Shown here: positions 335 to 39,224 of the stretch, piece after piece
Numbering within the stretch: the stretch's first letter is position 1
How the letters are laid out: each line of letters opens with the position of its first letter
Assembly (NCBI GenBank): GCA_964016885.1
Contig: OZ024758.1
Location: 27,528,001 to 27,592,000, forward strand
Reading direction: 5' to 3'
DNA: 64,000 bases
Source: Eledone cirrhosa
Taxonomy: Eukaryota
Program-made: the position numbers and the translations under genes
The notes under the pieces: generated by a model
What the model saw: only the letters and a program-made list of their open reading frames with translations
Database searches by the model: none
Told to the model about the DNA's origin: nothing

Positions 335-790
335 TACTCATTAGTTAAGCAAACCAAGACCACAAATTTCACAAGGAAGGTATTAAAAGATTGTCAACAT
401 ATTTTCGTCTGATGTAAGGAATGTAGAGAATAATAATAATAATATTAATAATAATAATGTCCGTTTACAATTGTTTCGCTACTCCATATAATATTTCTGG
501 ATCAAATGATTATAGATCATTATTGATCTGGTTCAGTTGAAAATAGAGCAGCTCATCGGAACTTCAAAAGGAATATAAATTAAAATAAGGAAAGAGTGTT
601 ACATAAATGTAATGTTCCATATATTGGTATTTCACTATGGTGTCCTGGGTATATCAATTGACTGCCATAGTCGAGCAGTATTCTTCTGTCGAGGCTGCAT
701 TGTGTGAGATCTGCCTATGGGTAACCATCTTTTAATAATGTCTTCCTTGTGAAATTTGTGGTCTTGTTTTGCTTAACTAATGAATATGTC
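335..790. mobile_element. Penelope-type relic with inverted termini
   Basis: About 337-395 is the reverse complement of about 725-785 and encloses a hammerhead-like motif. Confidence 0.5.
463..562 (-). ncRNA. Degenerate hammerhead motif
   Basis: GTT-CCGATGA-GCTGCTCTAT...ATGGAGTAGC-GAAA-CAATTG-TA-AAC. One core change, 10-bp stem II, short stem I. Confidence 0.5.
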
Positions 791-3707
791 CAGCTCTGCA
801 CGAACCCAGCCACCTAGCTGCCTTCCACTGCATATTGCACATTGAGCACATGCCTTTACGCTTTGGCTTCTAACTAATTCACCAGTCTCTCCTCTCCTAT
901 CTCCATCTCTCTCTTTAAGATTGGTTACTCTTGAACTGTGTGTGTATATATATATATATATATATATATATATGGATGTGTTCTTGTTACTGCTGTTATT
1001 GAAGACATGACTTCTTTAAAGTTTATCACAATATTCTCATTTCTTTTTTAATTTGACCACTTCAATTCATTTGGAGTCTTTAAGTTCATAATTTTGTCAA
1101 CATTTCCAACCACTCATAGTCTCATAATCATCATCATCATCATCATCATCATCATCATCAACATGAATTAACTTCAACTCTTCTTATTAATAACTGCATT
1201 GCTTCTATCCAGGGACTTTGGCGAAAAATAAACCTCATCTCGTCATTCCATGAGAGTATCTTAGTCGCCTTATCAACTTTTTCAGCCCACTCTCGTATTC
1301 CTACTCAGATTCTTCAAGGATTATATTAAAACCCAGACACCTTAGCCATTTTGCAAACAACTTTGTATAATGAGCAAATTAGTGTAGCTATTAACAATAA
1401 ATAACTTCGTTATAACATGCTCGTTGCAGGATGATATTTCATCCTCTTATAATATTTTGTAACTGCCATTTTAGAAATATGATATAACCAGATTAGTTAA
1501 AAATATGTGTAAAATGAAATAATTTCAAATATCTTAATTATAGTGTGTTGGGAATATCTTCTTTAGAAGCCGAATATAATGTGTGTGTTTCTTTAGAAAG
1601 AAATTATACAGTAAGTCACTATGTAGTCATAGCGAGTATTTTGTATATTTATAATACAGATCACTAGGTGGCGAATTATCAGACTCGTTAGAACGTCTGA
1701 TAGAATTCTTTGAGGTATTCATTTAGACTCTCAGCTTTGTCAGTTCAAATCCCGGCAAGGTCAGTTTTAAGATTTTACAAATAACCGTGGCATTGTACAA
1801 AATGTTAAACTATACTCAATATCCTCTTTGCATTAAGAAAACTTTGCTATAATTATAACAAATTTTTATCATATTTGTACATTTACTGCTAATTCCTTCG
1901 TCACCTGTATCTAAATCAATAAGAACACACCAATTTTGCCGAAAATTTTAATTTATTATCAAGTTAACTCTTAAATATTCTTTTATCATTATCGTTTTTT
2001 TTTTTATATATGACCACCAAGAATAATTCTCATTACTATTGTAAATAGTATTTTAATTCATTTTTATATAAACATTGTTTCAAGCAGTTGAACTTTCCCA
2101 TAAGATATGGCATAATATAGTACTCGTGCTAAAAAGTGAACTTACTCATACAGACCTTATAAAAGAATTCAGATTTCAAACATTTACCATCATAATGAAG
2201 TAAAATTTGGAGATCATGCATTCTGTTTATACATATCATTCGTAGTCTAAGCTTGAACAAACATATGAGTAATTCAGTATAACATGTCTAAAGTAAATAT
2301 TTTGGGGAGTACAACCTTTGATCTGTTGAGATCTCTTTCCCATTAAAAATATGACTAATTTGATTGAAGCGGGATATCTTAAAGGTGAATAAAGCAATGT
2401 GTGTTGGGGATACATCCAATTACTTATCAAAGAAAGTTATTTTAAGAATCTTATATCCATGTAGTTTATTCGGGGATTGGAGGGCAATATCCACAACCCT
2501 TTTCAAGGCTCCGGGGAATGTTGGGAGCGTGAAAGGTTTCGTTAAACCAGGTGCCTATTCCAAATGCTTGCTACAAAGTGGATTCTGCTCAAAGTACACA
2601 AGGACCAGTCGGTGATGTTAGACCGCGTGGCTGATTATGTCTACCCTACCAATTAATATGATTTAATCTCAGAATGCAAAAGGCCGGCAAAAATATCACA
2701 AACTATCTCATTCAATGCGCTACCGATTCCGCCAATCGACCGCTGTGGGCTGGTACTTTATTTCATCGACTTCACAGAGATGAAAGGCAAAGTGACCTTA
2801 ATGGGATTTGAACTCAGATAGTAGGAACAAATACCGTATGGCATTTTGTCCTATGCTTTAACAATTCTGCCAATGTACATGCCCATTCTTTCATAAGCCA
2901 CATATTGATGTTAATGTTTAATAATCTATAGGGGAATACATACTGAAATAAAAAGCAATTTTTCAATGTCAAATGCTTGAATAAAGGTTTCAGCAATTAA
3001 AATTAAGTGTTGAATATTCAAAGAAATCCTATTAAATAATGACTCGTCAAATTGATGTGTATGTAAAGGAAATTCAGAGCCTGACAACTTATAACAGAAA
3101 GAGATTCCTATTACTGAAATAAACAGCTTTCCTGATGCTCTACAAAAGTCAACCGTTTATTTAGCAACATTAGAAATTTCAGACAATTTTAATACATATC
3201 AGATCGATAGTTTGATTAAAAGGTATGATCGATACACAAAGTTGTTGGAGGTCAAATTCCAGATAAAAAGACATGGATTTAAAGCTTTATGGAAATTGTA
3301 TAATAGCTCTCACAATAATCAATGCTAGATTCTACACGAAGACAAATGCTAGTGGTTCAATAGATTAGGTTATAGAATAAAATGCCTTGTTCAGAGAGAC
3401 AATGACACCACATATCCTCGTCGCCCATGAGCTTTTAATATAAATAACATGATAACTATTTTCTCGGACATATTCGTTTTACATGGAAATATAAGGGCAA
3501 AAAAGAAAACAATGATATAGCAATAATGATATAATAATGTCTGACATAACATCAAGTCCAGCACTGTTTTAATGTAAAGATGTGGCAGATCATTGACATA
3601 TAATCAACGCTAATTAGAAAGGTGACCCTCTAAGTGATCTTAGACCGTGATGGGGCGTAATTAAGTACCACAAGGTATTTGGGTTTGGCGTTCTACTAAT
3701 TTTATTA

Positions 3708-4325
3708 ATAATTGTTTCTACTTTAGGCACAAGACCAGCAATTACCCAGTGCGTTACTGGTACTTTATTTTATCGACCCCCGTAAGGATGAAAGGCAAAG
3801 TCAACCTCGGCGGGATTTGAACTCAGATCGTAAAGGGACGTAACTATGCTGGAAGGCATGGCGTCCGACCCTCTACCGATACTGCCAATCCACTGGTTTC
3901 TGATTTAGATACAAAGCCAGCAATTTTGGGGGAGGGGAAAGTCGATTAAATCGACCCCAATACGTTACTGGTACTTTATTGCATCGACCCCGTAAGGATG
4001 AAAGGCAAAGTTAACCTCAGAGTCATACCTTGCTCAAAGTATCACAGTTAGAAGGGGGGGAAACTAAAGGTCTGGTAATTATGACTAAGTAACAGTGTCT
4101 CTTAACTAGTCATTACCGGAGATATATTCTGAAGCACCGGACAACATGCTTTATGGCATAGAGTTACGTCCCTTTGCGATCTGAGTTCAAATCCTGCCGA
4201 GGTTAGCTTTGCCTTTCATCCCTACGGGGGTCGATAAATAAAGTACCAGTAATGTATTATGGTCGATTTAATCGACTTTCCACTCCCCAAAAATTGTGGG
4301 GCTTGTGTCTAAATCAGAAACCAAT
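3708..4325. mobile_element. Cluster of tRNA-derived Nin/Deu-domain SINEs (two minus, one plus)
   Basis: GAGTTCAAATCC B-box followed by GCCTTTCATCCTTACGGGGTCGATAAA..AGTACCAG core. Confidence 0.8.
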
Positions 4326-38504: not shown

Positions 38505-38850
38505 GTAAAGACCCCCTTCAGTCACGAATGACCATGGGGTTTGCACCTAGAAAGTTCCCCTCCGAGGCACAAGTCCGGGCAAGGTTTATTTTGTGGAAGA
38601 CCAGTAGTTGCCCATGCAAACCAGTCTTCCCTCTCCACGCCATCGATGTTGTCCAAGAGAAAGGCAATGGCTGATACAGCTTGATACCAGTGACGTCACA
38701 ACTCATTTCTCTGCAGTTGAGTAAACTGGAGCAATATGAAATAAAGTATCTTGCTCAAGGACACAATGCATCACCCTGTCTGAGAATTGAACTCACAACC
38801 TCCAGATTGCAACCCCAATGCTCTAACACACTAAGCTATGTGCCTTCACA
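38505..38850 (-). mobile_element. tRNA-derived SINE
   Basis: Same tRNA head and CTTGAGCAAG core with a different 3' part. Confidence 0.7.
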
Positions 38851-39165
38851 TATATATATACATATATTTATAATATATATATATATATATCGGCTTCTGC
38901 TCACAACAGGACAACCCGTCTAACCCATGCTAGCGTCGAAGAATGGACGTAAAATGATGATGATGATGATGATATATATATATATATATATGTATAAATG
39001 AAGAAGAAGGCAGTATGTTAGAATCTTATATAATTTTATTAATTACATGATTGCTGTTATATGTATTTCAATGGTATCAACCATATGGCAGCCGAGTGCT
39101 GAAGGAGCAACATCAAAACACTCACCTGGGGCATATCACAGTATGAATTAAAAAATTACATAATA

Positions 39166-39224
39166 GCTGCCTGGTGAGGTTGTATCTATTGCATAACTGA
39201 TACCATTGAAATACGTATAACAGC
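39166..39224 (+). ncRNA. Degenerate hammerhead motif
   Basis: GCTGC-CTGGTGA-GGT TGTATC...GATACC ATT-GAAA-TACGTA-TA-ACAGC. One core substitution; lies inside an inverted repeat at 39010-39250. Confidence 0.45.

What the first reader, a model, noticed from the sequence alone, without database searches (positions are those of the whole stretch)
463..39224. Seven hammerhead-type motifs from about six sequence-unrelated families within 40 kb
Motifs occur at 463-562(-), 11494-11534(-), 13497-13567(+), 15221-15259(-), 20612-20697(-), 37234-37300(+) and 39166-39224(+). They share the CUGANGA...GAAA...UH core (one core change in two of them) but differ in stems. Stem III is a palindrome in five (ACAATTGT, ATGCGCAT twice, AGTACT, ATACGTAT). 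All but 15221 sit in or beside an inverted repeat, and most lie next to (AT)n tracts. This fits Penelope-like pLTRs (established). Inference: this genome holds a very large, diverse and probably uncatalogued ribozyme repertoire that inserts into (AT)n microsatellites.
Basis: partly seen in the sequence, partly recalled or inferred. Interest (0 to 1): 0.7.

Follow-up and report, generated by a model that had tools for sequence, protein, structure and literature searches.

The report
Hammerhead ends of octopus Penelope retroelements
The seven motifs are real hammerhead-shaped RNA sequences at the ends of six families of repeats that likely spread as, or by means of, Penelope-like jumping genes; this is a known kind of element, but a sample suggests this octopus-like genome carries roughly 200,000-400,000 such motifs, and their cutting is untested.

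Summary
Confirmed, with corrections. All seven motifs exist. Four are complete type I hammerheads (strict descriptor: 4 vs 0.04 in shuffles). One carries a family-wide U4C core, one is cut off at stem I, one is a decayed old copy. All six families are dispersed repeats. Two end Hydra-clade Penelope-like elements (RT, CxCx5C linker, GIY-YIG); the window holds one such endonuclease fragment. One is a non-coding ~460-nt unit, retrozyme-like. Three have no coding partner found. The window is no cluster: 118 evenly spaced 10-kb stretches gave 125 motifs (0 in 10 shuffles) in 30 families. That extrapolates to about 320,000 motifs (220,000-440,000) in about 190,000 insertions, about 4 per 64 kb. 80 of 90 terminal motifs have (AT)n within 250 nt downstream (background 16%). 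The kind is published, including an octopus Hydra element with a hammerhead and (TA)n targeting (Craig 2021). The scale exceeds every count in the papers I read. Rfam finds none of the seven. Cleavage and expression are untested. This scan already reported the same thing on other pieces of this genome. Verdict: new members of a known kind, notable for scale.

The parts
463..562 (-). Type I hammerhead, family F1: U4C core (family state), 10-bp stem II, palindromic stem III, short 3-bp proximal stem I
   Evidence: 10 of 20 F1 loci have a Hydra-type endonuclease match upstream on the same strand
338..811 (-). 5'-truncated F1 insertion: body about 720-338, inverted copy of the 3' end 724-783 that runs on into the tail to about 811; (AT)n at 243-336
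11494..11534 (-). Hammerhead of family F2 lacking the 5' strand of stem I (cut at C3); U10.1-U11.1; hairpin stem III with an 8-nt loop
   Evidence: complete copies in L136, L155, L260
11475..11660 (.). F2 fold-back insertion (arms 97% complementary, one with the tail) between (AT)n tracts 11379-11474 and 11661-11733
13497..13567 (+). Complete minimal type I hammerhead, F6 subfamily (8-bp stem I, A10.1-U11.1, palindromic stem III)
13375..13691 (+). F6-subfamily stump: inverted 5' part, hammerhead, full ~100-nt tail, then (AT)n from 13692
15221..15259 (-). Complete 39-nt minimal hammerhead, family F4 (U10.1-U11.1, palindromic stem III)
   Evidence: Perreault 2011 reports natural U10.1-U11.1
15105..15296 (-). 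192-nt F4 insertion between (AT)n tracts; very young family (the 20 best copies, self included, 100% identical)
20612..20697 (-). Complete type I hammerhead with hairpin stem III (predicted monomer-competent), extra U after A9; family F5; sense strand of a USP32 intron
20400..20870 (-). F5 insertion: inverted 3'-end copy 20814-20863, body, tail, (AT)n; family unit about 460 nt, non-coding, circularly permuted among copies
35557..35695 (-). Inverted copy of the F6 3' end including the tail, preceded by an AT-rich dinucleotide run
35696..36375 (+). C-terminal fragment of a Hydra-clade PLE ORF: linker CxCx5C, GIY-YIG-like VY...YIG, CxxC; ends early at a stop
37234..37300 (+). Complete minimal type I hammerhead of F6 (G10.1-C11.1, palindromic stem III), about 860 nt behind the ORF fragment and about 41 nt before the short 3' end
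35557..37333 (+). Whole 5'-truncated Hydra-clade insertion with inverted end, ending in (AT)n; antisense in a USP32 intron
39166..39224 (+). Decayed hammerhead of old family F7 (A6G, C11.1 to T in this copy)
39005..39255 (+). F7 stump with inverted arm 39005-39079 next to (AT)n; antisense in a USP32 intron
17488..61748 (-). Host gene: ten coding exons of USP32 (residues about 954-1580 of the Octopus vulgaris homologue); terminal exon not found

Best explanation
The seven motifs are hammerhead-shaped sequences at the 3' ends of six dispersed repeat families; two families are the ends of Hydra-clade Penelope-like retrotransposons, and the rest are likely stumps or gene-less passengers copied by such elements. 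Shown: multi-copy families, a conserved core with covarying stems, an RT plus GIY-YIG ORF upstream in F6 and F1, 5' truncation with an inverted end copy, two alternative 3' ends, and (AT)n flanks. Inferred from PLE biology: the GIY-YIG endonuclease nicks (TA)n; reverse transcription starts at one of two internal sites some 40-190 nt 3' of the hammerhead; most copies stop early or switch template. Almost every insertion therefore keeps the hammerhead and little else, which explains the number. Inferred and untested: in tandem transcripts two motifs of one family pair through their palindromic stem III and cut as a dimer, releasing unit-length RNA that may circularise. Solo genomic copies are likely mostly inert, except hairpin-stem-III forms such as 20612.
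For: Window: 4 strict hits vs 0.04 shuffled. Families: 40 candidates scored and 42-61 matches listed per query, from 170-1894 first-look candidates. ORF link: window ORF fragment 92% identical to the 645-aa L202 frame with YRDD; an F6 hammerhead lies downstream on the coding strand in 14 of 30 endonuclease loci (counted by eye); F1 in 10 of 20 loci; an F1-linked locus (L287) has RWR, DKT and YRDD; F1 and F6 proteins have CxCx5C, CxxC and CxH, the Hydra marks of Craig 2021. Structure: 10 of 18 predicted pairs change on both sides among 17 related motifs while the core is nearly invariant. A search blind to stem III gives 90 hits vs 1 in 12 shuffles; 38 of 49 distinct hits have a palindromic, near-palindromic or hairpin stem III. 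Genome sample: 84 strict hits vs 0.2; 125 scored hits vs 0, 30 families, (AT)5 within 250 nt downstream in 80 of 90 vs 16%. Tandem arrays of 310/311 and 556 nt with one motif per unit.
Against: No cleavage or expression data. No coding partner was found for F2, F4, F5 or F7 in 20 loci each; the few ORF matches there belong to neighbours or the other strand. In the random sample only 4 of the 19 loci with Hydra ORF matches had a scored hammerhead within 2.5 kb downstream. Pfam has no hit for the endonuclease or the L202 frame, so the clade call rests on motifs and on a by-eye comparison with the published Hydra-1_Obim protein. Only 5 of 74 distinct sampled motifs have the canonical G10.1-C11.1 pair, which may mean weak activity. 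Copy 5' ends do not pile up clearly at the cut site: 6 of 134 within 3 nt, inconclusive. In the one PLE studied in vitro, hammerhead cleavage was not needed for insertion and needed the protein (Frangieh 2024). The sequences were chosen by a descriptor that demands stem I and three stem II pairs, and they are related.
Confidence: 0.85

Rival explanations
1. The ORF-less families (F2, F4, F5, F7 and the tandem arrays) are retrozymes that have lived as circular RNAs for a long time, independent of any one PLE family, and merely borrow whichever PLE enzyme is present; they are not pLTR stumps.
For: F5 copies contain their own downstream sequence upstream, period 459 nt, longest stop-free frame 73 codons. 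Arrays of up to 12 plus 5 units (L242); the 310-nt unit folds as a circle at -67.8 vs -45.2 +/- 4.7 kcal/mol shuffled. No ORF link. Fits Cervera 2020 and Li 2026.
Against: Only the 20 best, mostly truncated copies of each family were examined, so a rare full-length coding copy would be missed. They share the footprint of F1/F6. This rival differs from the best explanation only in autonomy and probably holds for F5.
Confidence: 0.45
2. The motifs are hammerhead-derived RNA folds kept for a non-catalytic job, such as dimerising or binding the PLE protein next to the start of reverse transcription, and rarely cut in vivo.
For: Low in vitro activity of minimal PLE hammerheads (Cervera 2014); cleavage dispensable for insertion and no RNA ends at the cut site (Frangieh 2024); frequent non-canonical 10.1-11.1; no clear junction pile-up at the cut site.
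Against: All catalytic residues and a cleavable triplet are kept across 30 sequence-unrelated families (the descriptor requires them, but shuffles give 0). Position 7, the free one, varies. U10.1-U11.1 and U4C are reported in functional natural hammerheads.
Confidence: 0.25
3. Chance motifs in AT-rich, palindrome-rich DNA.
For: The one-mismatch descriptor gives false hits (3 satellite hits; 0.58 per shuffle); two of the seven copies fail a strict descriptor on their own.
Against: Shuffles give 0-0.2 against 84-125 real hits; families conserve the core; stems covary.
Confidence: 0.01

Closest known systems
Hydra clade of C-terminal EN+ Penelope-like elements, incl. Hydra-1_Obim of Octopus bimaculoides (Craig et al. 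2021, PMC8557442; passages, section 11 and supplement rows seen)
   Same: RT followed by GIY-YIG without CCHH; CxCx5C linker, CxxC and CxH, DKT; hammerhead near the 3' end with a short near-palindromic stem III and A10.1-U11.1; insertion into (TA)n; 5' truncation with inverted copy.
   Different: F1 and F6 carry different hammerhead sequences from the one listed for Hydra-1_Obim; L287 has RWR instead of RWK; the F6 tail is about 100 nt, not 30-40; the passages seen give one octopus Hydra family and no genome-wide hammerhead count.
[quoted passage not shown] 2017 not held, known only through a review passage in PMC6765202 and recall)
   Same: Type I topology, palindromic short stem III predicted to work as a dimer, many families per genome, mostly solo copies, pairs on opposite strands.
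   Different: About 70-106 per Mb here against about 2,000+1,300 (Schistosoma), 4,000 (coelacanth) and 9,000 (Xenopus tropicalis) per genome; palindromes of 4-10 nt in many different sequences; G10.1-C11.1 rare (5 of 74); some families have hairpin stem III.
Metazoan non-LTR retrozymes (Cervera and de la Pena 2020, PMC7229834, passages; Li et al. 2026 bioRxiv 10.64898/2026.07.22.740005, parts 1-2 of 5)
   Same: Non-coding tandem units of 310-556 nt with one type I hammerhead each; co-occur with PLEs.
   Different: Here the arrays and F5 carry the PLE footprint directly (divergent arms, (AT)n ends); circular RNA not shown; no cephalopod among the 35 species of Li et al.
Poseidon from Anolis, PAc (Frangieh et al. 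2024, PMC11167929, parts 1-2 of 4)
   Same: AT-rich target, two internal RT start sites that give a short end and a tailed end, hammerhead just upstream of them.
   Different: Other clade; there the ORF starts inside the hammerhead and the tail is 30-40 bp.

Membership tests
Type I hammerhead ribozyme | CUGANGA, GAAA and UH core framed by stems I-III | tested here: met
   Met in 4 of 7 copies outright, with U4C in 463; met at family level for 11494 and 39166
Type I hammerhead ribozyme | Covariation in stems with conserved core | tested here: met
   10 of 18 pairs with double changes in 17 motifs related to F6; one double change at 10.1-11.1 among 4 distinct F6 sequences, not above shuffles
Type I hammerhead ribozyme | Match to Rfam hammerhead models | tested here: not met
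   No hammerhead family among 64 matches at E<=1 in the window
Type I hammerhead ribozyme | Site-specific self-cleavage | not testable with these tools
   Needs in vitro assay or end-mapping RNA data
PLE minimal hammerhead (Cervera 2014) | Short palindromic stem III | tested here: met
   5 of 7 in the window; 34 of 49 distinct hits of a stem-III-blind search palindromic or near-palindromic, 4 hairpin, 11 neither
PLE minimal hammerhead (Cervera 2014) | Conserved G10.1-C11.1 pair | tested here: not met
   5 of 74 distinct motifs G-C, 8 G-T, 20 A-T, 20 T-T, 9 C-A, read directly after A9; an inserted base after A9 could shift some
Hydra-clade PLE | RT followed by C-terminal GIY-YIG | tested here: met
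   F6: L202/L279-L284 frames with YRDD and VY..YIG; F1: L287
Hydra-clade PLE | CxCx5C linker; CxxC and CxH; no CCHH | tested here: met
   Window fragment has CxCx5C and CxxC; relatives add CxH; absence of CCHH judged by eye
Hydra-clade PLE | N-terminal RWK and DKT | tested here: inconclusive
   RWR and DKT in the F1-linked locus L287; F6 copies examined are 5'-truncated before these motifs
Hydra-clade PLE | Insertion into (TA)n | tested here: met
Hydra-clade PLE | RT phylogeny groups with Hydra | not tested
   Only a by-eye colinearity with the printed Hydra-1_Obim RT
EN+ PLE insertion footprint | 5' truncation, inverted copy, optional tail at one end | tested here: met
   Inverted arm in 6 of 7 window insertions; short and tailed 3' ends in F1, F2, F4, F5, F6
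Neptune-clade PLE (my first, recalled guess) | Cx2-5CxxC linker and CCHH in the endonuclease | tested here: not met
   Linker is CxCx5C
Non-LTR retrozyme (F5, arrays) | Non-coding tandem or permuted unit with one type I hammerhead | tested here: met
   F5 period 459 nt, longest frame 73 codons; arrays in L154, L173, L225, L242, L246; coding capacity of the array units not checked
Non-LTR retrozyme (F5, arrays) | Expressed as linear and circular RNA | not testable with these tools
   Needs RNA data that were not available

The most novel reading that the evidence does not exclude
This genome has the densest ribozyme load yet described, about one intact hammerhead per 10-14 kb in 30-40 or more families, so most long host pre-mRNAs carry several. 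The many different stem-III palindromes act as family-specific pairing keys: a solo intronic copy is silent until RNA of its own family (for example abundant retrozyme circles) pairs with it in trans, while hairpin-stem-III copies, such as the sense-strand one in a USP32 intron, cut nascent host RNA on their own. Hammerhead cleavage would then be a genome-wide force on octopus RNA processing.
Probability: 0.12. Interest if true: 0.8.

Novelty: new member of a known kind. Interest (0 to 1): 0.38.

Why it matters
The role of hammerheads in Penelope-like elements is still called unclear in the papers read. A genome with about 10^5 insertions, 30 or more families from identical (F4) to about 80% identical (F7), with coding and gene-less forms side by side, is a large natural test set. 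It allows tests of dimer cleavage by palindrome swaps, of retrozyme mobilisation by Hydra PLEs, and of selection against sense-strand intronic ribozymes. It also shows an annotation gap: Rfam finds none of the seven motifs, a giant squid annotation lists only 235 hammerheads, and a 2026 Octopus vulgaris repeat annotation does not contain the words ribozyme or hammerhead. The element type itself is not new.

Tried and rejected
Rfam scan: only microRNA-like hits to (AT)n tracts and weak tRNA hits; no hammerhead. One-mismatch descriptor: too noisy. Neptune clade: my recalled first guess, dropped after an earlier scan note pointed to Hydra and the motifs were checked. Pfam on the endonuclease, on L202 and on four unnamed homologues: nothing at cut-off. 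Local cluster idea: rejected, the window matches the genome mean. Footprint of cleavage at insertion junctions: 6 of 134 5' ends within 3 nt of the cut site, about twice the surrounding density, inconclusive; the peak at -99 is an artefact of a tandem query. Sequencing runs: no RNA holder listed; no read evidence was obtained. USP32 terminal exon: not found with these queries in window 1-17450, the next 10 kb or the genome, so it is open whether the four motifs below 17,400 are intronic. A regex count of short versus tailed F6 ends failed; the statement on two ends rests. One search used a mis-numbered structure and is replaced. Lunse et al. 2017 is not held; it or its supplements may include octopus motifs. 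bioRxiv supplements were closed.
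Full report
Setting. The window is G000:C19:27528001-27592000 of a 2,996-Mb genome. It holds ten coding exons of USP32 on the minus strand; one exon is 92% identical to the Octopus vulgaris protein, so the host is an octopus-like cephalopod. About 42% of the window is tandem repeat.

Observation. All seven motifs are present. A strict type I descriptor (exact core, stem I of 4 bp or more, stem II, palindromic or hairpin stem III) finds four, at 13505, 15254, 20690 and 37242, against 1 hit in 25 local dinucleotide shuffles. 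The motif at 463 has CCGAUGA. This U4C is in 15 of 20 aligned copies (by eye), and Perreault 2011 (passages) says U4C lowers activity in vitro but suffices for a viroid. The motif at 11494 has lost the 5' strand of stem I at the inversion junction; complete copies occur elsewhere. The motif at 39166 is a decayed copy of an old family whose commonest state has the intact core. Six of seven have an inverted arm, and all lie 28-175 nt from (AT)n. Rfam reports no hammerhead among 64 matches at E<=1.

Families. Each of six queries returned 170-1894 first-look candidates; 40 were scored each time. F4 is very young (20 best copies identical), F6 is 94-99% and F1 84-91% identical to the window copy, and F7 74-87%. 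Copies are 5'-truncated at varied points and often carry an inverted copy of the 3' end. In F1, F2, F4, F5 and F6 they end either at a short end followed by (AT)n or after a further tail. Craig 2021 (passages, section 11, supplement rows) describes this layout for PLEs, and Frangieh 2024 (parts 1-2 of 4) traces the tail to two internal RT start sites.

Coding partners. The motif at 37234 ends a 1.8-kb insertion: inverted end 35557-35695, ORF fragment 35696-36375, 3' UTR, hammerhead, about 41 nt, (AT)n. The fragment is 92% identical to a 645-residue frame in L202 with YRDD. A genome search with the endonuclease gave 56,968 first-look candidates. In 14 of the 30 fetched loci an F6 hammerhead (two with one core change) lies downstream on the coding strand (by eye). 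F1 has a related endonuclease (about 40% identical) upstream in 10 of 20 loci, and locus L287 adds RWR, DKT and YRDD. The linker CxCx5C, CxxC and CxH are the marks of the Hydra clade. I first took these for Neptune from memory; an earlier scan note suggested Hydra and the motif test agreed. Hydra-1_Obim of O. bimaculoides is published with (TA)n preference and a hammerhead at 2403 of 2507. Pfam does not recognise these proteins, and I built no tree. For F2, F4, F5 and F7 no coding partner was found in 20 loci each. F5 copies repeat their downstream sequence upstream with a period of 459 nt and have no frame over 73 codons, as a retrozyme would.

Structure. Among 17 related motifs (15 sampled, 2 from the window), 10 of 18 predicted pairs change on both sides while the core stays nearly fixed; the set was descriptor-chosen and related. 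A search blind to stem III gave 90 hits against 1 in 12 shuffles. Of 49 distinct hits, 24 were perfect palindromes, 8 with G-U, 2 with one mismatch, 4 hairpins and 11 none of these, 5 of the 11 being odd-length near-palindromes. This fits dimer cleavage as proposed by Cervera 2014 (parts 1-2 of 4). Only 5 of 74 distinct motifs have G10.1-C11.1 read directly after A9, against that paper's consensus. The F5 family form folds as a hammerhead at minimum energy; the window copy ties with an alternative fold.

Scale. I fetched 118 of 120 requested 10-kb stretches at round coordinates across 27 large contigs; small scaffolds were not sampled. The strict descriptor gave 84 hits in 36 stretches against 0.2 per shuffle. 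A scored descriptor gave 125 hits in 52 stretches at score 10 or more against 0 in 10 shuffles; thresholds 8-12 gave 134-95 against 0.4-0. They fall into 30 families (Chao estimate 37-38). Extrapolated: about 317,000 motifs (bootstrap 218,000-442,000), 211,000 with the 310/311-nt family and the L246 array left out, or 193,000 insertions (147,000-244,000). Expected per 64 kb: 4.1 insertions; the window has 4. Of 90 array-terminal motifs with 300 nt of flank, 80 have (AT)5 within 250 nt downstream, against 16% of background positions. Forty of 125 lie in tandem and 48 have an inverted partner. Counts in the papers seen: axolotl 126,247 and mussel about 5,000 (PMC7229834, passages); Xenopus about 9,000, coelacanth 4,000, Schistosoma 2,000 plus 1,300; giant squid 235 (PMC6962438, passages). 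These used other methods, so 'record' is provisional.

How it likely works. Shown: repeat families, ORF link for two, footprint, (AT)n flanks, conserved fold. From known PLE biology: the endonuclease nicks AT-rich DNA and RT starts just 3' of the hammerhead, so even the shortest copies keep the motif; template switches make the inverted arms. Whether elements insert into existing (AT)n or also seed it was not tested (no empty sites seen). Inferred: same-family motifs pair through stem III in tandem transcripts and cut, giving unit RNAs or circles; solo copies are likely mostly inert. Against a strict need for cleavage: junctions show no clear pile-up at the cut site, and cleavage was dispensable in vitro for PAc. 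Only 4 of 19 sampled loci with Hydra ORF matches had a scored motif downstream; many older copies are presumably decayed. Host context: 20612 is on the sense strand of a USP32 intron; 37234 and 39166 are antisense.

Literature. Searches for hammerhead+Penelope+octopus, hammerhead ribozyme+Penelope-like, hammerhead/ribozyme/cephalopod/octopus/mollusc, hammerhead ribozyme+genome+octopus, retrozyme+cephalopod and octopus+Penelope+microsatellite+genome size found no genome-wide octopus hammerhead survey. The 2026 O. vulgaris repeat paper lists 31 recently active Penelope-like families and has no occurrence of ribozyme or hammerhead (passages). Reviews PMC6765202 and PMC7761336 were seen as passages; Li 2026 as parts 1-2 of 5. 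Lunse 2017 is not held and may cover octopus motifs. This scan has noted hammerheads in 317 of 495 notes on this genome, with similar estimates; these are not independent support.

Verdict. Real, well above chance, and explained by a known system: new families of PLE and retrozyme hammerheads. The unusual part is the load, about one per 10-14 kb. Interest 0.38.

Noticed in passing
L242:4015-9194 (G000:C3:55.00 Mb), also L154, L173, L225: Divergent tandem arrays of a 310/311-nt unit with one minimal hammerhead each (12 units one way, 5 the other in L242, both outer ends at (AT)n); 33 of 125 sampled motifs; the unit folds as a stable circle (z about -4.8). Best candidate for an expressed retrozyme.
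   Followed up: partly
L246:4141-9766: Tandem array of a 556-nt unit with a hammerhead bearing a 10-nt palindromic stem III.
   Followed up: no
genome sample: Position 10.1-11.1 is mostly U-U, A-U or C-A rather than G-C; loss of the CpG formed by C11.1-G12 could be one cause.
   Followed up: partly
window 44022-55203: 11-kb satellite, 32-nt unit x354, GC skew about 0.83, inside a USP32 intron; further arrays of 147, 46, 24, 48, 37, 69, 61 and 23 nt elsewhere in the window.
   Followed up: no
window 21998-22691: A 24-nt satellite (22016-22691) starts about 15 nt after the USP32 exon match ending near 22706 and keeps that reading frame open.
   Followed up: no
window 38233-38290, 61074-61131, 30667-30724: Sub-threshold Rfam tRNA matches inside a dispersed ~150-nt repeat, likely a tRNA-derived SINE.
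   Followed up: no
window 27514-27816 (-): Reverse transcriptase fragment (PF00078, just under cut-off), probably a LINE; not linked to the hammerheads.
   Followed up: no
window 15576-15854 and 16355-16633: 279-nt inverted repeat, 98% complementary, 500 nt apart, next to but separate from the F4 insertion.
   Followed up: no
window 1-17450 and L285: The terminal USP32 exon (about 50 residues) was not found here or by a genome search; it may lie in an assembly gap such as the N run near 13.2-13.4 kb, further away, or have been missed.
   Followed up: partly
window, 13 CTGANGA sites: Earlier notes report rearranged hammerheads of Naiad elements in this genome. Eight CTGANGA sites in the window belong to none of the seven motifs; I listed them but did not test them for the rearranged fold.
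   Followed up: no
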